Positions 2,621-63,791 are shown, numbered from the stretch's first letter. The stretch is DNA of 64,000 nucleotides from an uncultured Azospirillaceae bacterium (GCA_964410325.1 CAYPFN010000004.1:1486-65485), one strand, 5' to 3'. Numbers and translations: made by a program. Notes: generated by a model from the letters alone, not told the origin.

Positions 2621-5600
2621 ATGAAAGGTTTATGGATTGTAACAAAAAATGAACTGTTGCGCTATTTCATTTCACCACTGGCGTATGTTTATTTGATGTC
2701 TTTTTTAATCTTAAACACGGCGATGGCTTTTTATTTTGGAAACTTTTTTGAACGTGGGCAAGCTTCCCTGCAAGTAATGTTTGCTTTTCAGCCTTGGCTT
2801 TACTTATTGTTTATACCAGGGATTTCCATGCGTTTATGGGCTGAGGAATTTCGAACCAAAACAATTGTACAAATTATGACTATGCCGGTTTCAATTGAGG
2901 TGTTGGTGTGGGGAAAATTTTTGGCCGCATGGTTGTTTTGTGCCCTAGCGCTTATTTTAACTTTCCCATTTTGGCTGACGGTGAATATGCTTGGTGCTCC
3001 TGATAATGCTGTTATTGCTGTCAGTTATGCCGGTAGTTTTGTTCTGGCGGGTTGCATGCTTGCCATTTCGCAAACCATGTCTGCTTTGACCAAAAACCAA
3101 GTTATCGCTTTGGTGCTTTCTGTAGCGGCAAATTTAATGTTTTTTTGGAGTGGCGTAGAATTTATTTTATCTTTTTTCCGGTTGTTTTTACCTGATTATA
3201 TGATTGATGCTATTGCTTCTTTCAGCTTTTTAACACACTTCAGCAGCATTACTGGCGGTTTGCTTGAACTGCGTGACGTTTTATTTTTTGCTTCCATCGT
3301 TATTTTGTTTAATTTCACTACAGTTTTGATTGTCAGTTTCCGCACGGCAGGCACTTCTTCTTGGTTAAAATCGACCAATCGCCCCTATTATATTTCCGCG
3401 TGGATAATGCTGGTGCTGGGATTTATGGGCTTTAATCTGCTGGCCAACAATCTTACCCGTGGCACACAAATAGATTTCAGCGAAGACGCAATTTATACAC
3501 TTAACAAAGATACGGTCATGACGTTGCAAAATTTAACCGAGCCGGTTACTGCCAAATTATATTATTCAACAATTTTGGAGCAACGCAATCCGATTATGCG
3601 CCAGATGTTTGATAAAATTCGTCAGCTTTTGGCGCAGTATAAAACTCATTCCAATGGTAGATTTGATTACCGGATTTATCATCCGCAAAATCTTGATAAT
3701 GTTGAAGATCGAGCCATTGCCGACGGTATTCAACCAATACCTTTAATTGACATTAATCAAAATGCGTTGTTTGGCTTAACCGTTACCGATACGCTACAGA
3801 ATAAAAATGTTATTCCTTATTTTACGCCGGCTCGAATGGCTTTTTTGGAGCAGGATTTAACTTCTCTTATTTATCAGCTGGGGCGTGAGAAAAAAACAGT
3901 GGCAGTCTTATCAACATTGCCGATTAACGGCGGTGGCACTGACAGCATGATATTGCAGCCCTGGGAAATCACCCGGCAGATTGGAATGTTTTACAATGTT
4001 CGTTATATTCAAAAACCGGAAGATTTGGATGATCATCCAGATGTGCTTATTCTTATTCATCCGCAAAACATTGGTTCGGGAATGGCCGAAGCTATTAAAA
4101 AATATTCGCAAAATTATGGGAATATTCTTTTGCTTTTGGACGGAGCCGCAGAGGCGCCAAGGCTTTATTCTTCGGTAAACCTTCCCTTTCAGGCATCAAA
4201 CTTAAACGGGCTTGATGAGTTTTGGGGAATTCGTTTTTATAATGAATATGTGGTGGCGGATTTGGATAATTCTATTACTGTAGATGCAACCAGCAATTAT
4301 AAAAACAATCCCGCTTTTACACAGGATATCATTCAATTTAAACTTAAAAAAGAAAACTTTAATCCGAAACATCCAGTTAGCAAAAACTTACAAAGCATGC
4401 TGATGTCATCCGTTTCCGTAATTATGCCGATAAGCCGTGATATTGAATTTATTCCGCTTATGCAGGCCAGCAACAATTCTTCTTTAATGCCTATCAAAGT
4501 TGTGTACGACGGTTTAAATCCACGGCAAGTATTAACATATTTCCAGGCAGATGACAACCCAAAGATTTTAGCGGCGGCTATTCATGGCAAAAAACCAGAT
4601 AATCAATTTAATATGATTGTGGTCGGAGATACGGATTTTATTTATGATAATTTTTGGGTAACATCACAGACAATTTTGGAGCGAACATTTTTTATTCCGT
4701 TGTTTAATAATGCCGACTTTATCTTAAACAGTCTGGATTATCTGACGAATAATAGAGATTTATTGGAGCTACGCGGTAAAAGTGCCCGCAGCCGCGAGTT
4801 TTCAGATATTGAAAAACTGCGTAAACAAAACGTCTTCCTATATAAAATTAAGGAAGAAAAAATTTTTACACGGATGAACAATGTTAAAAATCAGTTACAG
4901 GAAATTTGGAGTAAGCGGGATTTTGAAGAGCGCGAAATTTTTACTGCCGACGAACTGGCTCTTATCAGTAGCATTCGTAAACAATTGGAAGAACTCCGAC
5001 AAGAATTAAGCAATATCCGCTTGCAAGCCAACCGCGATATTAGTCAAATTGCCGCAAAAATTAAATTTATTAATATTTTTGCCCTACCGTTAGTATTAAG
5101 CTTGATATTGCTGATTTTTCTGTGGTTAAAAAAAGACAAAAGAACTTATGGAACGCCTCTTAAATTTAATCGAGCGTTATTGAAACTCTTTCTGACGGCC
5201 GTTGCCGTACTGTCAGCTGGTATTGCTTCCGTTTATTTTTCCAATCTGTCAGATATTCAGAAATATGAAGATAAACCTCTGTTTCCGAAATTACCTGAAC
5301 AAATTAATCAGATGCAGTCAATCATCATCAAAAACAATAAGCATAGTCTTCATTTTATTAACGATAAGGGAATATGGAAGATTGAAGAACATTCCGATTT
5401 TCCTGTTTTTCAAGAACGCATCCGTAGTTTTTTGAGCGCCTTGATAGAAGCCAGATTTTATGAGAAAAAATCTGATAAAGCTGAAAATTTGGCCTTGTTT
5501 GGTTTACAGCCGATTGAAGTTGAAAATTCACCTAATACAAGGATTGAGCTTTTAAATACCGATAGCAATCCGATTTTAAGTTTTGAAGTAGGCAAATACA

Positions 5601-58482: not shown

Positions 58483-59562
58483 ATGTCTTTAAATTTCATA
58501 TTTGGCGTTTTGTTAATATGTGTCGGGTTTGTTTGTTCTCGGGTGATTTTAAATTTTTTACGTATGGACGGTGGTGAAATCAGAGAATATACTTTTCTAA
58601 AAGATCCGTGGCTATATATCTTTTTTTTGACAGGCGTCGGCTTATTGGCGATTTTTTTTCTGATGCCGAATTTTAATGATGTTGTTGTTCCTTTAACAAT
58701 TACTCCGTTGGGGGTGTTGTTGGGGTTATCGCTACTTATTTATGTAGTTTTTTTATTAGAAGAGGATTGGCTGTTTTATTTAGTTTTGGCCGGCGCAAGT
58801 CTGGTTTTGGCTTTTATGATTCCCGATGAAGTATTACTTTTTGAGGGTTTAGTGCCTTTGTGGGTTGATAGGTTGATTGTTGCGGCTGCGGTATTTATAT
58901 TTACGAGTTTAGCTCAATGGTTGAATGGTTTGCCCAACATTTTTACCATTCAGTGCCTGACAATTACAATTGGTTTGTTTGTTATGGCTTTGGTTGGCGG
59001 TGTTTCGCAAATTTTAGGATTTGCCGGCGCTTGTTTGGCTGGAGTATGGTTGGGATTATTCAATTTAAATCAAATTTCTGGAACGGGTATACTGAATAAC
59101 GGCGCATGCGCAGCGGCGGCGTTTGTTTTTTCAGGCTTGTTGATTGATGGTGCTCTGGAGATGGCCGGACCGTCAATGGTGATTTTGATAATGTATGCGT
59201 TATCTGAGGGAATGTGGAGCATTGTCTGCCGGTATATTTTAGGAATAAAACGACTGGATTGGTCAGATAATACGACCTATATGTCTGTGGCCGATAAAGG
59301 AGCGTCAATAGACGCCATAAACACGGCTGTTATTAAAATAGGGCTGGTTAATGTCATGTTAGCCGGTTTCCAGCTTTTTGCCGTTAACGCCTTTTCAATT
59401 CCCTTGTTTGCTTTGGCTGTTAATTTGTGGCTCCTTAGCATGTTATATAATGCGGATAACAAAAAACAATCTTTGAGGGAAGTTAACCGAGATTTTGTCA
59501 GCAATATCAAAGAAGAGCTGAAAGAGATCCAACAATCATTCAGGAAAGGCAAAGGTCGGTAA
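58483..59562 (+). CDS. Polytopic membrane protein, hypothetical (359 aa)
   Basis: 8+ hydrophobic helices. Its start abuts the rsmB stop. Confidence 0.45.
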   Translation: MSLNFIFGVLLICVGFVCSRVILNFLRMDGGEIREYTFLKDPWLYIFFLTGVGLLAIFFLMPNFNDVVVPLTITPLGVLLGLSLLIYVVFLLEEDWLFYLVLAGASLVLAFMIPDEVLLFEGLVPLWVDRLIVAAAVFIFTSLAQWLNGLPNIFTIQCLTITIGLFVMALVGGVSQILGFAGACLAGVWLGLFNLNQISGTGILNNGACAAAAFVFSGLLIDGALEMAGPSMVILIMYALSEGMWSIVCRYILGIKRLDWSDNTTYMSVADKGASIDAINTAVIKIGLVNVMLAGFQLFAVNAFSIPLFALAVNLWLLSMLYNADNKKQSLREVNRDFVSNIKEELKEIQQSFRKGKGR

Positions 59563-60902
59563 TGTTTTTTACAGGACTTAAAAATTTATTTAATAGTTCT
59601 GCGTTGGAAGTTGCTGTTCCGGAAAAAAGGCGGATAAAGGTTGTTGTGGCTGCTTTTGCAGATGATTGTCCGGAAAATTCGGGAAAAATTTTAGCGCAGT
59701 ATCTGTCCGGATTAGATTTTTTGGCCGTAAAATATTATGAAAATCCGTTAGGAAGAGATTTTGTTAATCTTAACAGTCGGAATTTTTTTGATTTTATTGA
59801 TTTAGGAAGACAAATTATCAACGTAACGGAAGCGGATGTCCTTATATGGGGGAATCGGGAACAAGATAGAATTCGTTTGAATTTTCAAATCTTGCGTCAA
59901 TACGAGAAGCAAGATTTGCCGTTTTTTTCTTTGTTGAATAATTTGTATCTTCCGCTGTCGTATCTTCAGGAGAGAAATTTTCCAACATCTATGCAGTTTT
60001 TAATTGGAGGCGTTATTGTGGCGGTGGCTGATTTGAAAAACCACCGGGAACAAAAAGAGAAACTAGCAGAAATTTTGGATAAAATCGGCCGAGAGCACTC
60101 TCCCAGAGGATTAGAAGTTTTTTACATGCCGTATATTTTAAATATTTTGGCGCTGATTTATTTGTGCTCAAAAGCTGAAGAATTAAAATTGTCAGACGTG
60201 AAAATTGTTTCGGATTTATGGGCAAAAGCCTACAAAAGCCTGTCGGCAGGTAAAGATTTGCTTTTAAGCGGCAATATATATGCTGGTTTGGGGCAGCTGT
60301 ATCAATTGGCAGCGGAGAATCTGCAGCGGAATAAATATATTTTTTATAAAAACGCCGCCGAATGTTATCGATATGCGCAAAAATGTTTCAGTCGCCATTC
60401 CTATCCGTATGATTTTGGTATTTTATCTTATCTGCTTTCAAAAGTTTATTACGGATACTGGAAACAATCTTCAGATGTTCAGGCACTGCGTGATTCTGTA
60501 TTTCACCTTCGGGAAGCAGAAAAGTTTTTTTCAAAAGCTTCATTCCCTTATTTTTGGGCGGATATTCAGGGAGATTTAGGCTTATATCTATCGTTATTGG
60601 GCTTGTTTGGGCGCAATGATGAAATTTCTATGTTGGCTGTTGAAAATTATAAAAATCGCCAGAGAATTTATACGCGGGAACAATGGCCTTTGGAATGGGC
60701 AAAGGCTGAAGAAAGCATCGGTAATATTTTTTATAATTCAGGCAAAAGGTTTGATGACGAGGAGTATTTGGAAGAGGCTATAAAATATTATGCTGAAGCA
60801 GCGGATATATATGAAAATAACCGTTTGAGCACGGAATTAAAACAAACGCAGATTTGCATTGCCAAAGCAGATGAACATATTATGCAGCTTAACCGGAAAT
60901 AA
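59562..60902 (+). CDS. Hypothetical soluble protein with TPR-like repeats (446 aa)
   Basis: Its start overlaps the preceding stop by 1 nt (TAATG). The C-terminal half has repeated A/Y-rich helical pairs. Confidence 0.45.
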   Translation: MFFTGLKNLFNSSALEVAVPEKRRIKVVVAAFADDCPENSGKILAQYLSGLDFLAVKYYENPLGRDFVNLNSRNFFDFIDLGRQIINVTEADVLIWGNREQDRIRLNFQILRQYEKQDLPFFSLLNNLYLPLSYLQERNFPTSMQFLIGGVIVAVADLKNHREQKEKLAEILDKIGREHSPRGLEVFYMPYILNILALIYLCSKAEELKLSDVKIVSDLWAKAYKSLSAGKDLLLSGNIYAGLGQLYQLAAENLQRNKYIFYKNAAECYRYAQKCFSRHSYPYDFGILSYLLSKVYYGYWKQSSDVQALRDSVFHLREAEKFFSKASFPYFWADIQGDLGLYLSLLGLFGRNDEISMLAVENYKNRQRIYTREQWPLEWAKAEESIGNIFYNSGKRFDDEEYLEEAIKYYAEAADIYENNRLSTELKQTQICIAKADEHIMQLNRK

Positions 60903-60948: not shown

Positions 60949-61041
60949 GGAGAGATGGCAGAGCGGTTGAATGCGGTTGACTCGAAATCAATTGTACTCT
61001 TTAACGGGGTACCTAGGGTTCGAATCCCTATCTCTCCGCCA
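60949..61041 (+). tRNA. tRNA-Ser (anticodon CGA)
   Basis: GGAGAGATGGCAGAGCGGTTGAATGCGGTTGACTCGAAATCAATTG..long arm..TAGGGTTCGAATCCCTATCTCTCCGCCA. Closely parallels the E. coli tRNA-Ser(CGA) layout. Confidence 0.8.
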
Positions 61042-61047
61042 TTAAGC

Positions 61048-61076
61048 AAAACCCCGCACAAGGCGGGGTTTTGCTT
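61048..61076. terminator. Bidirectional hairpin terminator
   Basis: aaaaccccgcacaaggcggggttttg. Confidence 0.55.
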
Positions 61077-61087
61077 TGCGATTTAAG

Positions 61088-62314
61088 TTATTTTTTTGTT
61101 TCAGCGTGGTAATCAATATGGCAGTCTTTGCATAACATTATGCAGTTTTCTATGGTTGTTTCGCCACCGTCAGCAAAAGCTTTTTTATGATGGCCTTCCA
61201 GGTCTTTCAAGGCAAAATTTTTGCCACAGCGGGCGCATTTGCCACCTTGCCTTTCATAGGCTTGTTTTTGTTGATGTTCGCTAAAAGCTCGATGCCAAAT
61301 CAGCGTTCTGTCATCAGATAGGCAATATTCATAAAAGCCTTTCTTTTTCAAGCCGTCGGGGTCGATATCATAAAGCTCATATAAATGGTTAAGTTTTTCG
61401 GCAATCTGCGCCGAATTAAAACTTTTATGATGATATTTATTGTACAAAATTCCCCAATCAAGGCCTTTCATATCCGTGCGATAAGTGATAAACGTGTGTT
61501 TAACCCATGAAATAACATTTTTGAAATAATCAATAAGTTCACCAGCGTCATTGTCAAAACGGTGCTTGCCCATATAATCTTTAATTTGCGGATATTCCGC
61601 CGGTTGCGCATCAATTCGCCAGCCAAGAGCAAGTTCCAACAGCAGTTGTCGGTTTGCTTTATCGCCGAGTCCGCCCATATCGCCCAGGGTTTTATCCGCC
61701 GACAGGCTAAGCAAGGTTTTTTTGTCGTCATTGTCGTAATAAGAAATGGCAATCGCTTCATTGTTATTTTTCTTAGAGAAAAACTGTTTCGCTGCCGTCA
61801 GCCACTGACCGGTATAATTAGCATTAAGAAGTTCCTGATTGGTCATTTGTTTACCGGCAATGTTAATGGTGTGAAACCAATCCAACTTCTCATCATCTGT
61901 CCCTTCGCAGACGTAAACTTGTAGCCGATAATCCAAAATTTCTTTCTGTTTATCAGGGGTGAGACCTTCAAAAGTTTGCGTATTTCTGCCGTTAAAGTCA
62001 ATGGCAATAGGGTTGCCGTATCCGTCATCATTGGTGATAAACTGGCAGATAGAAATCAGACGTTGCTGTCCGTCAATAACCTCGAAAGTTCCGTCCGGAT
62101 TGACAGCCCAATACATACTGTTCAATGGCATGTTGTTATATACCGAGAGCATCACCCGATCCCTGTCATCGGGATTATAGACGAACGCCCGCTGATACGC
62201 CGGACGAACATTAAGTTTCCCGCCAAAAGCCACCACGCCTTGCTCGCCTTTATCCAAATAGCCGCCCACTAAATCTCTGATAGTAATAACTGGCTGAGTC
62301 GTTTTCATTGTCAT
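61088..62314 (-). CDS. DUF262 (ParB/Srx-like, DGQQR motif) - HNH endonuclease fusion protein; predicted restriction/defence nuclease
   Basis: 408 aa. N-terminal ..FEVIDGQQRLISICQF.. is the DUF262 hallmark. C-terminal GGKCARCG...EGHHKKAFADGG...NCIMLCKDCHIDYH is the classical HNH pattern (CxxC...HH...N...CxxCH). Confidence 0.7.
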   Translation of the reverse strand: MTMKTTQPVITIRDLVGGYLDKGEQGVVAFGGKLNVRPAYQRAFVYNPDDRDRVMLSVYNNMPLNSMYWAVNPDGTFEVIDGQQRLISICQFITNDDGYGNPIAIDFNGRNTQTFEGLTPDKQKEILDYRLQVYVCEGTDDEKLDWFHTINIAGKQMTNQELLNANYTGQWLTAAKQFFSKKNNNEAIAISYYDNDDKKTLLSLSADKTLGDMGGLGDKANRQLLLELALGWRIDAQPAEYPQIKDYMGKHRFDNDAGELIDYFKNVISWVKHTFITYRTDMKGLDWGILYNKYHHKSFNSAQIAEKLNHLYELYDIDPDGLKKKGFYEYCLSDDRTLIWHRAFSEHQQKQAYERQGGKCARCGKNFALKDLEGHHKKAFADGGETTIENCIMLCKDCHIDYHAETKK

Positions 62315-62315
62315 A

Positions 62316-63437
62316 TCAGTTCTCCTTTTTCTTAATCAAAATACGAGCATATGCAGAATAAACACATTCGTGGGTCAAAGGGTGGATATAATAATTTCCT
62401 TTTGATGATTTTCCTAATAAAACAGGATTTCCTCGTGTCTTTCGTCCGCTCGCATTAGTATAAGTGCCGTCTTGTCTAATTTCTTTAAAATCATCATACT
62501 CCCGTATTGCAGGAATTCCGGCCAATATTTCATCACTTGAATTTAAAAGACCGATAATGTTAAATTGTTTGGGATTATATTTATCCAAAAAGGTTATCGG
62601 CACCCCCATCGCCCCGATATAATCCATCGGGATGTCGCTGACCTTATCAACATTAATGGCGTCGTAATTGTCATATTTGGGATACATTTCTTCATAGCCG
62701 TAATATTTTTTGCCGGTATTAATTACCTCAATTCTTCGGCTATTTTCCAAATTTGTATACCAGCTGACATTACCAAAGTTCTTAACTAAACCGTCTGGCT
62801 TGTAAAACTGCTTAACATGATGTAACCCACACCAAAACTTATTTTCTTTTATCAACGGAAAAATTTCTTTATAGGTGCGACAGTTATCATTGCCGATAAT
62901 TAAAAATTTTTTATTGTACTGTATAAGCTGCGCCACATATTCGCGAAATAGAGAAAACGGTGGGTTGGTTATTACGATATCCGCTTGTTTTAACAGCGCA
63001 ATACATTCTTCACTTCTAAAATCGCCGTTTCCTTTGAGCGGGATTTCTGTAATATCTTCAAAGCAAGCGATTTTGTCGCCGGTATTGTCCTTATCCAAAA
63101 TATACATAGAAGAGTTTTTTTTATCTTTCTCGTAGTGGGTGGCTATAACTTTTTTGATTTTAAATGCCTCAAAATTATCCGCCAGATATTTCAAAAAATT
63201 TGACTTTGGCGTTCCCAGGCCGATGCCGTTATGGTCATCGCAGTTGCAATAAATCACCTTGCCTTTGAAATATTTGGCATAATTGGACAGTTCTTTTTTG
63301 ATATCTTCGTATGTGGTATAAAATTCGTCATTCTTAGCATTTTTTGCTCTCTTTAAGTTCTTGTGTCCCATTGTCAAAACTCCCAACAAAAAATCGCCTT
63401 TGGTGCAAAAGGCGACTGGAAGTTCGAAGCTACTCAT
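62316..63437 (-). CDS. DNA methyltransferase, NPPF motif (N6-adenine or N4-cytosine; EcoRI-methylase-like family by recollection)
   Basis: 373 aa. IVITNPPFSLFREY is catalytic motif IV. N-terminal DEFYTTYEDI and VIYCNCDD segments are present. The stop is 1 nt from the nuclease start, implying an operon. Confidence 0.65.
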   Translation of the reverse strand: MSSFELPVAFCTKGDFLLGVLTMGHKNLKRAKNAKNDEFYTTYEDIKKELSNYAKYFKGKVIYCNCDDHNGIGLGTPKSNFLKYLADNFEAFKIKKVIATHYEKDKKNSSMYILDKDNTGDKIACFEDITEIPLKGNGDFRSEECIALLKQADIVITNPPFSLFREYVAQLIQYNKKFLIIGNDNCRTYKEIFPLIKENKFWCGLHHVKQFYKPDGLVKNFGNVSWYTNLENSRRIEVINTGKKYYGYEEMYPKYDNYDAINVDKVSDIPMDYIGAMGVPITFLDKYNPKQFNIIGLLNSSDEILAGIPAIREYDDFKEIRQDGTYTNASGRKTRGNPVLLGKSSKGNYYIHPLTHECVYSAYARILIKKKEN

Positions 63438-63559
63438 TGGAAAGTAGTGGGCATATTAATTTAAACAAGATAAAAGCAAACGCTTATCCCTTGATATAAA
63501 CATATTAGCCTCCTTCCAGTCGGACGACCAGAAGGAGTTTTTTACGCCAATGATAATTG

Positions 63560-63625
63560 GCAACCAATGATGAGGCTTCGAACCCTCGGGGCAGACACCA
63601 ACCTGCCTTAAAAGCAAGGTTAAAC
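63560..63625 (-). repeat. tRNA-like fragment (T-arm/acceptor-like GGGTTCGAAGCC...TTGCCA) flanking the MTase-nuclease module
   Basis: The reverse complement reads GGCAGGTTGGTGTCTGCC CCGAGGGTTCGAAGCCTCATCATTGGTTGCCA. A T-loop consensus is present, but no full cloverleaf could be folded. Confidence 0.3.
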
Positions 63626-63791
63626 GATAAGAAATAAAATGCAAGAAATTTTTTGAACGGCATTTCGAAAAACAAATTTAGATTTTATAATTTTATTAAA
63701 AAATTAATAAAATTCGTATTAATAATGAACTCGGGATATTGTTTATTCGTTATTTTATTTGTGACAGAAAATTAATTATCGAGATTAAAAA

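What the first reader, a model, noticed from the sequence alone, without database searches (positions are those of the whole stretch)
60949..63640. Compact MTase + DUF262-HNH nuclease islet wedged between tRNA-Ser(CGA) and a tRNA-like fragment
Two translationally coupled minus-strand genes sit directly 3' of an intact tRNA-Ser. One is an NPPF methyltransferase (62316..63437). The other is a ParB-like DUF262 plus HNH nuclease (61088..62314); their stop and start are 1 nt apart. They are bounded on the far side by a degenerate T-arm/acceptor-like fragment (63560-63625), and a bidirectional terminator follows the tRNA. The layout looks like a small tRNA-targeted genomic islet carrying a restriction-modification-like or other defence module. 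No integrase remains. The nuclease architecture (DUF262 + canonical HNH, rather than the GmrSD pairing DUF262 + DUF1524) is not a classical Type II REase fold. Its pairing with an MTase argues against a purely modification-dependent Type IV enzyme. This is my best candidate for an under-described system here.
Basis: partly seen in the sequence, partly recalled or inferred. Interest (0 to 1): 0.75.

Follow-up and report, generated by a model that had tools for sequence, protein, structure and literature searches.

The report
RNA-led restriction-modification cassette, not tRNA islet
The two genes are a widespread but uncharacterised restriction-modification pair, and the supposed tRNA remnant beside them is the start of a new ~225-nt structured leader RNA that these gut bacteria also place in front of a porin gene.

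Summary
The interpretation needs revision.

(1) The pair, an EcoRI-family N6-adenine methyltransferase followed by a DUF262(ParB-like)-HNH nuclease, is a conserved two-gene module. It is adjacent in 62 of 66 genome loci across many phyla and also occurs on plasmids. PADLOC catalogues it as Type II R/M. RefSeq calls the nuclease only "DUF262", and I found no paper on it.

(2) The "tRNA-like fragment" is not a tRNA scar. It is the 5' part of a ~225-nt structured RNA (63609-63384, minus strand). This RNA has its own promoter, strong covariation and an intrinsic terminator about 15 nt before the methylase ribosome-binding site. It is absent from Rfam.

(3) The same RNA family precedes a porin-family outer-membrane-protein gene in related bacteria. 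It is therefore a portable attenuator-type leader. In other lineages a C-protein-like HTH gene or a tRNA-Ser sits in that position.

(4) The methylase carries two swappable variable modules, while the nuclease has none. This suggests that the methylase supplies target recognition.

There is no integrase and no att repeat. The ligand or trigger, the recognition sequence and the enzymology remain unknown.

The parts
63617..63644 (-). Putative sigma-70-type promoter of the leader: -35 TTGCAT (63644-63639), 16-nt spacer, -10 TAACCT (63622-63617). Similarity to relatives begins abruptly here, at about 63648-63653.
   Evidence: The conserved block starts at CTTGCA in 13 loci whose upstream flanks are unrelated. 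Better-matching promoters occupy the same place in other copies: TTGCGA-17-TATTCT in L076/L077, and TTGACA or TATAAT in clades B and C. The window's -10 is too weak for the consensus scan, so the promoter is inferred from position and conservation only.
63384..63609 (-). Structured leader RNA, about 225 nt. Helices: P1 63607-63602/63595-63590; long-range P2a 63580-63575/63430-63425 and P2b 63570-63564/63440-63434; P3 63561-63557/63550-63546; P4 63537-63526/63521-63510; P5 63490-63488/63451-63449 with a variable inner hairpin; then the terminator.
   Evidence: Covariance model R1 scores 252 bits here. In 19 distinct copies, 48 pairs were predicted and 12 show compensatory double changes. 99.3% of cells pair, against 36-54% in slid registers; the covariation score is 0.228 against 0.03-0.06; 0 of 500 shuffles reach the observed value. 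Conserved G-U pairs make the structure specific to this strand. No Rfam family matches.
63386..63417 (-). Intrinsic terminator at the 3' end of the leader (stem 63417-63409/63400-63392, then a T-run), about 15 nt before the methylase Shine-Dalgarno sequence. The segment just 5' of it, CUUCCAGUC, is complementary to the 3' strand of P4 (GACUGGAAG) and partly to the SD (GGGAG).
   Evidence: The terminator scan finds 10 pairs plus a T-run, and the element is conserved in all copies. The equivalent antiterminator helix in the clade-B leaders is supported by compensatory changes and overlaps the terminator 5' strand by 4 nt. In clade A the alternative pairing rests on complementarity of invariant segments only.
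62316..63371 (-). N6-adenine DNA methyltransferase of the EcoRI_methylase family, 351 aa, with catalytic motif ITNPPF.
62763..62888 (-). Methylase variable region VR1 (about residues 162-203). Three unrelated sequence types occur among close relatives; the window has type a.
   Evidence: Alignment of 17 clade-A methylases. Windowed identity falls to 0.41 on average and 0.0 at minimum. Synteny alignments break here.
62352..62552 (-). Methylase variable region VR2 (about residues 274-340). At least 7 unrelated types occur; the window's type was not seen in any other locus examined.
   Evidence: mean identity 0.22-0.29. The DNA alignments to L001 and L003 have their gap here. Many database homologs cover only about 77-80% of the query. 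The region lies in the beta-rich C-terminal half, which has no close solved relative.
61088..62314 (-). Nuclease, 408 aa. The N-terminal DUF262/ParB-like domain has an invariant VIDGQQR motif. A helical middle region follows, then a C-terminal zinc-ribbon HNH (C360, C363, H376, N390, C391, C395, H399). It is translationally coupled to the methylase.
   Evidence: Pfam. PADLOC REase_II PDLC03418, E 3e-89, full length. Invariant columns in A1. Only the HNH part matches solved structures: McrA, a group II intron maturase and IscB. No swapped block was found.
60949..61041 (+). tRNA-Ser(CGA). It is a neighbour of the cassette, not part of it, and is convergent with the nuclease gene.
   Evidence: ARAGORN and Rfam. 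Similarity to relatives ends at the nuclease stop codon, 61088.
61048..61072 (.). G+C-rich hairpin (CCCCGC/GCGGGG) flanked by A-runs and T-runs. It is a probable bidirectional terminator shared by the tRNA-Ser and the nuclease gene.
   Evidence: Read from the sequence. Terminator-type Rfam models align to it on the minus strand below threshold. The simple scan reports only an offset + strand site.

Best explanation
Window 61088-63648 (minus strand) is a three-part restriction-modification cassette. A promoter drives a ~225-nt structured leader RNA that ends in an intrinsic terminator. About 20 nt further on comes an EcoRI-family N6-adenine methyltransferase gene, and this is translationally coupled to a DUF262(ParB-like NTPase)-HNH nuclease gene.

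Shown:
- The gene pair is a conserved, mobile module found in many phyla and on plasmids.
- The leader is a real, strand-specific structured RNA.
- The same RNA family also sits directly upstream of a porin-family outer-membrane-protein gene in related Alphaproteobacteria.
- In other lineages the position in front of the methylase is occupied by a C-protein-like HTH gene or by a tRNA-Ser.

Inferred:
- The leader is a conditional transcription attenuator. The methylase and nuclease can only be transcribed by read-through of its terminator. A segment next to the terminator can pair either with the terminator partner or with an upstream strand (an antiterminator), and it can also mask the methylase ribosome-binding site. 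The leader would therefore set or gate M-R expression in response to an unknown signal, doing the job that controller proteins do in classical systems. The RM operon probably acquired it from the host porin gene.
- Because the methylase has two cassette-like variable modules that reassort among loci while the nuclease has none, the nuclease probably does not read the DNA sequence itself. It probably relies on the methylase for target recognition, as the Res subunit relies on Mod in Type III systems, and cuts unmethylated DNA with its HNH site under control of the NTP-binding DUF262 domain.
For: Module:
- Pfam and PADLOC assignments.
- The methylase lies immediately upstream on the same strand in 62 of 66 genome loci. 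Three of the four exceptions are cut by a contig end.
- The same pair occurs on plasmids of cultured bacteria.
- Genomic contexts differ: fbaA/infC, mscL/rplK, an anmK-like gene and others.

Leader:
- DNA similarity to unrelated contexts runs from the nuclease stop codon to about 63648.
- Covariation is strong in clade A and in clade B.
- R1 finds one copy 5' of the methylase in every clade-A locus that has upstream sequence.
- The terminator is confirmed. The clade-B antiterminator helix has compensatory changes and overlaps the terminator. RNAfold draws the SD-masking helices.

Portability:
- Solo copies lie upstream of the OMP gene in L076/L077.
- R1 hits L086/L087 upstream of an 85%-identical OMP in another context (E 2e-14).
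- R2, trained only on RM leaders, hits the OMP leaders of L089-L093 at 76-85 bits (E 1e-23 to 1e-26) and also L086 and L033.

Alternative controllers:
- HTH_3 ORFs abut the methylase in L055, L056 and L074.

Recognition logic:
- Methylase mosaic. Windowed identity is 0.22-0.41 in VR1/VR2 against at least 0.64 everywhere in the nuclease, and no nuclease column tracks the multi-member VR types.
- Syntenic loci L011, L013 and L015 differ exactly at VR1 and VR2.
- VR1 and VR2 lie in the C-terminal non-Rossmann half, where M.TaqI-type enzymes carry their recognition domain (the M.TaqI comparison is my own knowledge).
- The DGQQR motif is invariant and is predicted to bind and hydrolyse NTP in GmrS (PMC4619093).
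Against: - There are no expression data. The window's promoter is weak by consensus and the transcript ends are inferred.
- In clade A the antiterminator and SD-masking pairings involve invariant segments, so covariation cannot test them there.
- No ligand or binding partner is known. A leader that merely stabilises or processes the mRNA is not excluded.
- PADLOC labels the nuclease a Type II REase, which by definition would recognise its site itself. I could not check REBASE.
- VR1 and VR2 being recognition modules is an analogy, not a demonstration.
- The nuclease model was too poor (pLDDT 59) to look for a hidden DNA-reading domain. Its region at about residues 240-330 is only 64-68% identical between relatives and could tolerate specificity changes by point substitution.
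- The direction of leader transfer, from the porin gene to the RM operon, is inferred only from the porin's conserved context.
Confidence: 0.6

Rival explanations
1. This is a classical Type II restriction-modification system. The DUF262-HNH protein is an independent, sequence-specific endonuclease with the same specificity as the methylase. The upstream RNA is just a long structured 5' UTR, acting as an mRNA stabiliser or processing signal borrowed from a highly expressed porin gene, with no switching function.
For: - PADLOC REase_II and MTase_II models match over their full length.
- C-protein-like HTH genes sit in front of some relatives, as in classical Type II systems.
- The module is small, two genes, mobile and plasmid-borne.
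- The porin association recalls the long stabilising 5' UTRs of OMP mRNAs such as E. coli ompA (my own knowledge).
Against: - A strong intrinsic terminator conserved 10-35 nt before the start codon in every copy is hard to reconcile with a simple stabiliser.
- The mutually exclusive helix has compensatory changes.
- The methylase swaps two modules among loci whose nucleases are about 72-85% identical and show no co-varying block. An independent sequence-specific REase would become lethal or useless after each swap.
Confidence: 0.2
2. The RNA is a trans-acting component. It is made in excess because of its terminator, as in Type III toxin-antitoxin loci (promoter, RNA, terminator, toxin gene), and it binds and restrains or assists the nuclease or methylase. 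Alternatively it acts as a base-pairing sRNA on other targets.
For: - The promoter-RNA-terminator-effector layout is the same as in ToxIN-type loci (my own knowledge of ToxIN; layout).
- Many unpaired or loop nucleotides are invariant.
- Copies without M-R genes are maintained with compensatory changes (L076 versus L077).
Against: - The same RNA precedes a porin gene in conserved core contexts where no M-R pair is nearby, so it cannot be a dedicated partner of the nuclease.
- It contains no repeats and no unpaired hypervariable (guide-like) segment. The variable segments pair with each other.
- The variants of helix P2 do not track methylase types.
Confidence: 0.1
3. One reading: a genomic islet integrated into tRNA-Ser, bounded on the far side by a duplicated tRNA fragment (an att scar), whose integrase has been lost.
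For: - A tRNA-Ser lies 47 nt from the nuclease stop codon.
- A tRNA-Ser recurs next to this gene pair in L051, L056, L057, L059 and L060, with different anticodons.
- Other tRNAs flank a few copies (L012, L038, L046).
- A tyrosine-recombinase-like gene lies upstream of the pair in L024.
Against: - The far-side 'fragment' is part of a conserved RNA present in more than 20 loci, including loci with no tRNA nearby.
- No tRNA model matches it.
- There is no significant direct or inverted repeat of the tRNA at the boundary.
- In the CPR loci the tRNA is on the other side of the cassette (5' of the methylase, same strand).
- L011, L013 and L015 show the cassette as a stable syntenic resident.
Confidence: 0.04
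4. The nuclease is a GmrSD-like, modification-dependent (Type IV) enzyme, and the neighbouring methylase is functionally unrelated or serves another role.
For: - The DUF262 domain with its DGQQR motif and a His-Me finger nuclease have the same parts list as GmrSD, BrxU and SspE.
- One solitary homolog without a methylase exists (L045).
Against: - Near-obligate adjacency and translational coupling with the methylase from 28% to 86% nuclease identity.
- The C-terminal domain is PF01844 HNH, not DUF1524.
- A self-methylating host carrying an m6A-dependent nuclease in the same operon would be suicidal.
Confidence: 0.03

Closest known systems
Type II restriction-modification operons with a controller (C) protein, e.g. 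PvuII, BamHI, AhdI, Esp1396I (my own knowledge of these systems)
   Same: A compact methylase-plus-endonuclease operon that is mobile and plasmid-borne, with a dedicated regulatory element directly upstream. Relatives of this very pair in Spirochaetia, Hyphomicrobiales and Ca. Andersenbacteria carry an HTH_3 ORF in exactly that position.
   Different: Here the upstream element is a ~225-nt structured RNA ending in a terminator, not a DNA-binding protein. The nuclease is DUF262+HNH rather than a PD-(D/E)XK or a simple HNH enzyme. The methylase swaps recognition modules while the nuclease stays constant.
GmrSD / BrxU / SspE family (DUF262 + DUF1524 His-Me nucleases; PMC4619093, PMC12707154)
   Same: An N-terminal ParB/Srx-fold DUF262 with the near-universal DGQQR motif predicted to bind and hydrolyse NTP, a helical linker, and a C-terminal His-Me finger nuclease.
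   Different: Those enzymes are modification-dependent or phosphorothioate-sensing and have no cognate methylase. Their nuclease domain is DUF1524. No sequence-level match to their solved structures was found here.
Type III (Mod/Res) and Type I restriction-modification logic (my own knowledge)
   Same: Specificity resides in swappable recognition modules of the methylase component, while a conserved nuclease component lacks any. NTP use by the nuclease component is plausible.
   Different: There is no helicase or translocase motor. The nuclease has a ParB-like domain and an HNH site. A physical M-R complex is only inferred. The methylase belongs to the EcoRI family, not the Mod or HsdM families.
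Riboswitch- and attenuator-type 5' leaders (terminator/antiterminator expression platforms, e.g. T-box, SAM or cobalamin btuB leaders; my own knowledge)
   Same: A conserved multi-helix domain followed by mutually exclusive antiterminator and terminator helices just before the start codon. The same RNA is used in front of unrelated genes (a porin gene and an RM operon).
   Different: It is not in Rfam 15. No ligand is known. RNA-attenuator control of a restriction-modification operon was not found in the searchable literature.
Type III toxin-antitoxin loci (ToxIN; my own knowledge)
   Same: The gene order: promoter, structured RNA, intrinsic terminator, then the potentially toxic protein gene(s).
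   Different: The RNA is not a tandem repeat array and also precedes a harmless porin gene. There is no evidence that it binds the nuclease.

Membership tests
Type II restriction-modification system (as catalogued by PADLOC) | A methyltransferase and an endonuclease are encoded side by side and match catalogued R and M families. | tested here: met
   PDLC03418 REase_II, E 3e-89, full length; PDLC03297 MTase_II, E 6e-101. The two genes are adjacent in 62 of 66 loci.
Type II restriction-modification system (as catalogued by PADLOC) | The endonuclease on its own recognises the same defined sequence as the methylase and cuts at a fixed position without NTP. | not testable with these tools
   This needs biochemistry or a REBASE entry with a known site. 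Indirect evidence points the other way: no nuclease block co-varies with the methylase's swapped modules.
GmrSD-type Type IV restriction enzymes | An N-terminal DUF262 domain with the DGQQR motif. | tested here: met
   PF03235, E 4e-20. D81, G82, Q83, Q84 and R85 are invariant. The motif is described in PMC4619093.
GmrSD-type Type IV restriction enzymes | A C-terminal DUF1524 nuclease domain. | tested here: not met
   Pfam reports PF01844 HNH (and a weak HNH_5 match), with no DUF1524.
GmrSD-type Type IV restriction enzymes | A stand-alone, modification-dependent enzyme without a cognate methylase. | tested here: not met
   The methylase is translationally coupled and almost always present. Modification dependence itself could not be tested.
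tRNA-integrated genomic island | An integrase or recombinase within or beside the element. | tested here: not met
   None is present between rsmB and macB around the cassette.
tRNA-integrated genomic island | A repeat of the tRNA 3' part at the distal boundary (attL/attR). | tested here: not met
   The best shared word is an inverted 10-mer, and a match that long arises in 37 of 300 shuffles. The candidate fragment is part of the conserved leader RNA.
tRNA-integrated genomic island | An empty site in close relatives. | tested here: inconclusive
   The flank-gene bait found no relatives among the GTDB representatives. The exact-protein look-up returned only a short contig that ends at the tRNA.
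Any Rfam 15 RNA family (including tRNA, tmRNA, HEARO/omega RNA and known riboswitches) | A match to the family covariance model. | tested here: not met
   Nothing relevant was found at E<=10 in the window's leader, and nothing at E<=0.05 in the leaders of L028, L006, L050 and L077.
Terminator/antiterminator attenuator leader (riboswitch-like) | A conserved structured domain supported by covariation. | tested here: met
   clade A; clade B.
Terminator/antiterminator attenuator leader (riboswitch-like) | An intrinsic terminator immediately upstream of the regulated ORF, with no room for another promoter. | tested here: met
   (window). (all RM and OMP copies; the terminator ends 10-35 nt before the ATG).
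Terminator/antiterminator attenuator leader (riboswitch-like) | An alternative helix mutually exclusive with the terminator. | tested here: met
   Clade B/L050: an 11-bp helix, 3 pairs with compensatory changes, sharing 4 nt with the terminator 5' strand. Clade A shows complementarity only, between invariant segments.
Terminator/antiterminator attenuator leader (riboswitch-like) | A defined ligand or factor that shifts the equilibrium. | not testable with these tools
   This needs in-line probing, transcription assays or genetics.

The most novel reading that the evidence does not exclude
The leader is a new class of ligand- or factor-sensing riboswitch-like RNA. It places a porin gene and a restriction-modification operon under one physiological signal in uncultured gut Alphaproteobacteria. 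In addition, the M-R pair is a new mechanistic type of restriction system, in which a modular EcoRI-family methylase supplies recognition to a sequence-blind, NTP-gated ParB-like/HNH nuclease.
Probability: 0.25. Interest if true: 0.85.

Novelty: new variant of a known kind. Interest (0 to 1): 0.7.

Why it matters
Control of restriction-modification operons is known to use controller proteins, methylase autoregulation and antisense RNAs. A large structured leader with a terminator switch would add an RNA-based solution to the problem of establishing and balancing these systems. Here it is directly comparable with C-protein-controlled relatives of the same gene pair.

The RNA itself is a well-supported new family. 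It has about 30 copies in two sequence types, strong covariation and two unrelated cargo classes. It comes from bacteria that have no cultured representatives, which makes it a concrete riboswitch or attenuator candidate for experiment.

The gene pair is abundant, with thousands of homologs including copies on plasmids of cultured bacteria, yet it is annotated only as 'DUF262'. The pattern of reassorting methylase modules beside an unchanging nuclease gives a testable prediction about how specificity is shared. It also offers a natural panel of new m6A specificities.

Tried and rejected
- A tRNA or tmRNA origin for the fragment. ARAGORN, the Rfam tRNA model and repeat tests were all negative.
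- A small ORF or C-protein inside the leader.
- A guide-RNA or specificity role for the hypervariable helix P2. Its two strands pair with each other, and its variants do not correlate with methylase VR types. The variability is best explained by a pairing-only constraint at saturated divergence plus recombination, as seen between L020 and L082.
- A recombination-site or attC-like ssDNA reading. The promoter and terminator frame the element, the G-U pairs are strand-specific, and the element is fixed upstream of a core porin gene.
- The empty-site test. The genome contigs bait with the 446-aa flank gene found nothing. The exact look-ups gave only short Logan contigs. No pair of fetched loci showed the same context with and without the cassette.
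- Viral origin. The leader 24-mer has no match in IMG/VR.
- Nuclease structure. The AF2 model was too poor for a fold search (pLDDT 59).
- Naming a REBASE enzyme. There is no REBASE access, and literature searches for DUF262+HNH+methylase and for RNA control of RM found nothing specific.
- A leader in the plasmid copies from cultured bacteria. None is evident in Sulfitobacter or Mammaliicoccus.

Full report
1. OBSERVATION.
ORF 61088..62314 (408 aa) carries Pfam GmrSD_N/DUF262 (E 4e-20) and HNH PF01844 (E 2e-12). ORF 62316..63437 matches EcoRI_methylase PF13651 end to end (E 6e-104). The stop and start codons are 1 nt apart. tRNA-Ser(CGA) lies at 60949..61041, followed by a G+C-rich hairpin flanked by A- and T-runs.

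Two corrections are needed. First, the methylase starts at ATG 63371 (351 aa). An external gene call gives exactly that protein (P0121), and relatives start there. The ATG at 63437 lies inside a conserved RNA, upstream of a terminator. Second, the 'tRNA-like fragment' is not a tRNA relic (section 3).

2. THE GENE PAIR IS A CONSERVED, MOBILE, CATALOGUED BUT UNCHARACTERISED MODULE.
PADLOC models labelled REase_II (PDLC03418, E 3e-89, full length) and MTase_II (PDLC03297, E 6e-101) match the two proteins. NCBIfam has no family for either. Only the HNH piece matches any solved structure.

Both proteins have very large homolog sets. Where a source names them, the names are 'DUF262 domain-containing protein' and 'modification methylase'. 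In 66 loci from GTDB representative genomes, an EcoRI-family methylase lies immediately upstream on the same strand in 62. Three of the four exceptions are cut by a contig end. One (L045) is a solitary nuclease next to a serine recombinase.

The hosts are mainly uncultured gut or rumen Alphaproteobacteria (RUG and RGIG bins, Ca. Enterousia). Patescibacteria, Treponema, Clostridia and Bacteroidota also occur. The pair is found on plasmids of cultured Mammaliicoccus, Gordonia, Sulfitobacter, Variovorax, Aeromonas and others, again annotated only as DUF262 plus EcoRI-family methylase. I found no paper describing this architecture paired with a methylase.

Genomic contexts differ among close relatives: fbaA/infC, mscL/rplK, an anmK-like gene and others. 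L011, L013 and L015, however, are syntenic over 13 kb. The unit therefore both moves and persists.

3. THE 'FRAGMENT' IS PART OF A STRUCTURED RNA THAT BELONGS TO THE CASSETTE.
DNA similarity between the window and loci in unrelated contexts runs from the nuclease stop codon (61088) through the methylase and on to about 63648-63653. It therefore includes about 280 nt upstream of the methylase. Aligned leaders start abruptly at a promoter-like CTTGCA(T), 16-17 nt, TAACCT. They end in a terminator just before the methylase SD.

In 19 distinct copies, RNAalifold predicts 48 pairs, 12 of them with compensatory double changes. In the control counts, 99.3% of cells pair against 36-54% in slid registers. 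Sixty-six cells have a change on both sides, against 0-15. The covariation score is 0.228 against 0.03-0.06. None of 500 shuffles reaches the observed value. Conserved G-U pairs make the fold specific to the methylase-sense strand.

The architecture is as follows:
- a 5' hairpin P1;
- a long-range helix P2a/P2b enclosing P3, a 12-bp P4 and P5;
- then the terminator.

Its 'loop' is ACTGAAAA, TTAGTAC or GTTCAAAG in other copies, always matched by the complementary change about 150 nt downstream. ARAGORN and Rfam find no tRNA there, and Rfam 15 has no family for the element. No ATG inside the element is conserved.

A covariance model (R1) finds exactly one copy in the window (63609-63384, 252 bits). 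It finds one copy 5' of the methylase in every clade-A locus that has upstream sequence (196-262 bits).

4. THE RNA FAMILY IS BROADER THAN THE RM OPERON.
More distant alphaproteobacterial relatives of the pair have their own versions with the same layout. These are clade C (L006, L033), clade B (L028-L038) and the group at about 42% nuclease identity (L050, L052, L058, L069). The clade-B version is independently supported. It shows 97.2% paired cells against 33-52%, a covariation score of 0.393 against 0.05-0.15, and 0 of 500 shuffles.

An exact-word scan of JGI metagenomes found eight more clade-A copies. Two of them (L076, L077) have no M-R genes. There the RNA sits about 35 nt upstream of a porin-family outer-membrane beta-barrel gene (PF13505).

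I followed this up with four look-ups of homologs of that OMP. All have 340-410-nt upstream gaps.
- R1 hits L086/L087 (OMP 85% identical, different context) full length at E 2e-14.
- R2 was trained only on RM clade-B/L050 leaders. It hits the OMP leaders of L089-L093 (context rpsA-OMP-recG) at 76-85 bits, E 1e-23 to 1e-26.
- R2 also hits L086 (E 7e-7) and clade-C L033 (E 0.008).

The sequence types therefore form one family, with L086 bridging them. The family is used in front of two unrelated cargo classes. The porin association lies in a conserved core context and the RM association in variable contexts. I infer from this that the RM operon carries a leader of porin origin. The L023 RM leader is nearly the same as the L076/L077 porin leader, which points to recent exchange.

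In non-alphaproteobacterial relatives the slot in front of the methylase holds one of two other things. One is a small HTH_3 ORF abutting the methylase start (L055, L056, L074), which resembles the controller proteins of classical systems. The other is a tRNA-Ser 77-95 nt upstream on the same strand (L051, L057, L059, L060).

5. HOW THE LEADER PROBABLY WORKS (INFERENCE).
Every copy ends in a hairpin plus T-run 10-35 nt before the start codon, with no room for another promoter. Transcription of the cargo therefore requires read-through.

In each type, the segment just 5' of and overlapping the terminator stem is complementary to the 3' strand of an upstream hairpin:

| Clade | Upstream strand | Segment at the terminator |
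|---|---|---|
| A | GACUGGAAG | CUUCCAGUC(GCC) |
| B | GGUCGGGGUG | CACCCCGACC(GCC) |
| C | GGGUGGAUG | CAUCCGCCC |

In clade B/L050 this helix is the consensus fold. It has compensatory changes (GUUCGGGGAG/CUCCCCGAAC) and shares 4 nt with the terminator. The same segment can pair with the methylase SD (CUUCC/GGGAG, CCCCGA/UCGGGG, UCCCC/GGGGA).

This is the anatomy of a terminator/antiterminator attenuator with SD masking. What shifts the equilibrium is unknown. The many invariant unpaired nucleotides suggest a ligand or a protein partner.

6. THE METHYLASE IS MODULAR AND THE NUCLEASE IS NOT.
Clade-A methylases share a conserved scaffold but carry two cassette-like variable regions. VR1 (about residues 162-203) has 3 unrelated types, and VR2 (about residues 274-340) has at least 7. 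The two reassort.

Windowed identity falls to 0.22-0.41 (minimum 0.0) in the VRs. It never falls below 0.64 in the nuclease, and no nuclease column tracks the multi-member VR types. The syntenic loci L011, L013 and L015 differ exactly at VR1 and VR2.

I infer that the VRs set the methylation specificity. I further infer that the nuclease, lacking any co-varying module, does not read the sequence itself but depends on the methylase, as in Type III and Type I systems. Its invariant VIDGQQR motif matches the motif predicted to bind and hydrolyse NTP in GmrS. Its C-terminus is a zinc-ribbon HNH. Complex formation and NTP gating are not shown.

7. THE tRNA-ISLET HYPOTHESIS.
Several observations argue against it:
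- There is no integrase. The flanks are rsmB, two orphan genes and tRNA-Ser on one side, and macA/macB on the other.
- There is no att-like repeat.
- The far 'fragment' is explained by the leader RNA.
- The nearest relatives lack an adjacent tRNA.

An empty site could not be obtained. The recurrence of tRNA-Ser next to the pair in CPR and spirochaete loci is real and unexplained, but it has a different geometry from the window's.

8. COMPARISON AND NOVELTY.
The module works like a restriction-modification system and is catalogued as Type II. The defining Type II property, a self-sufficient sequence-specific nuclease, is untested and is indirectly doubtful. It is not a GmrSD-type Type IV enzyme: DUF1524 is absent and a methylase is coupled to it. 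The leader works like an attenuator or riboswitch expression platform but belongs to no Rfam family. I found no report of RNA-attenuator control of an RM operon.

I therefore rate the whole as a new variant of known kinds: a new RNA family in a known regulatory class, attached to an uncharacterised branch of RM systems.

Limits: all evidence is comparative, there are no expression, methylome or biochemical data, and REBASE could not be consulted.

Noticed in passing
L051 4728-4815; L057 1969-2059; L059 4812-4899; L060 4799-4888; L056 4541-4721: A tRNA-Ser (anticodons tga, cga, gga, gct) lies 77-95 nt upstream of the methylase on the same strand in Saccharibacteria/Parcubacteria loci and an unclassified MAG. 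In a spirochaete locus (L056) two tRNA-Ser genes lie 226-321 nt upstream. The flanks beyond are unrelated, and L057, L059 and L060 share a conserved ~65-nt spacer hairpin. This could be an integration hot-spot or a tRNA used as a promoter/processing module. It is unexplained.
   Followed up: partly
L055 about 280-477; L056 about 4735-4925; L074 about 4680-4877: A small XRE-type HTH ORF (Pfam HTH_3, E 1e-12 to 1e-15) ends at the methylase start codon. It is a C-protein-like controller occupying the position that the leader RNA holds in Alphaproteobacteria.
   Followed up: partly
L076 4490-5187 versus L077 4907-5604: The RNA plus the start of the porin gene is 97% identical between two contigs whose flanks are only 81% identical. 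This suggests recent exchange of, or very strong constraint on, the leader-porin unit.
   Followed up: no
L020 4821-5038 versus L082 10479-10696: The two loci are about 97-98% identical overall, yet helix P2a of the RNA is replaced on both strands (ACUGAAAA/UUUUCAG against GUUCGAAG/CUUCGAA), with extra changes in the variable hairpin. This implies a recombination tract across the leader.
   Followed up: partly
window 63601-63596 and 63406-63403 (A3 columns 9-14 and 213-216): The invariant P1 loop UUGGUG is complementary to the invariant CACC(A/G)A in the terminator loop. This is a possible loop-loop contact. There is no variation, so it cannot be tested by covariation.
   Followed up: no
A3 column 170 (window 63448) against the P2a type: The base in GCCC[A/G]CUA is G in every copy whose P2a is ACUGAAAA and A in all the others. 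This is either linkage between haplotypes or a tertiary contact.
   Followed up: no
L016 5350-6010; L075 781-1044: Decayed copies. L016 has a disrupted methylase (a 50-aa ORF) with an intact nuclease. L075 has the RNA plus about 75-114 aa of the methylase, joined to unrelated DNA (a deletion or an assembly chimera).
   Followed up: no
L006/L041 17-587: An IS200/IS605-type Y1 transposase gene and an Rfam STnc490 match (72.9 bits) lie directly upstream of the clade-C leader-M-R unit.
   Followed up: no
L024 1795-1905 (-) and 2240-3928 (+): A weak R2 hit (E 7e-4) with no ORF after it lies next to a 562-aa tyrosine-recombinase-like gene, about 1.1 kb upstream of the M-R pair in a Ca. Enterousia MAG.
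   Followed up: no
L045 43-3085: This is the only locus with a solitary DUF262-HNH homolog and no methylase. It lies 310 nt downstream of a 540-aa large serine recombinase in a Clostridiales bin.
   Followed up: no
window 58483-60902: The two genes between rsmB and tRNA-Ser (359 aa, membrane-like; 446 aa) have no significant Pfam family. The 446-aa protein found no relative among 185,579 GTDB representative genomes by the pattern scan.
   Followed up: no
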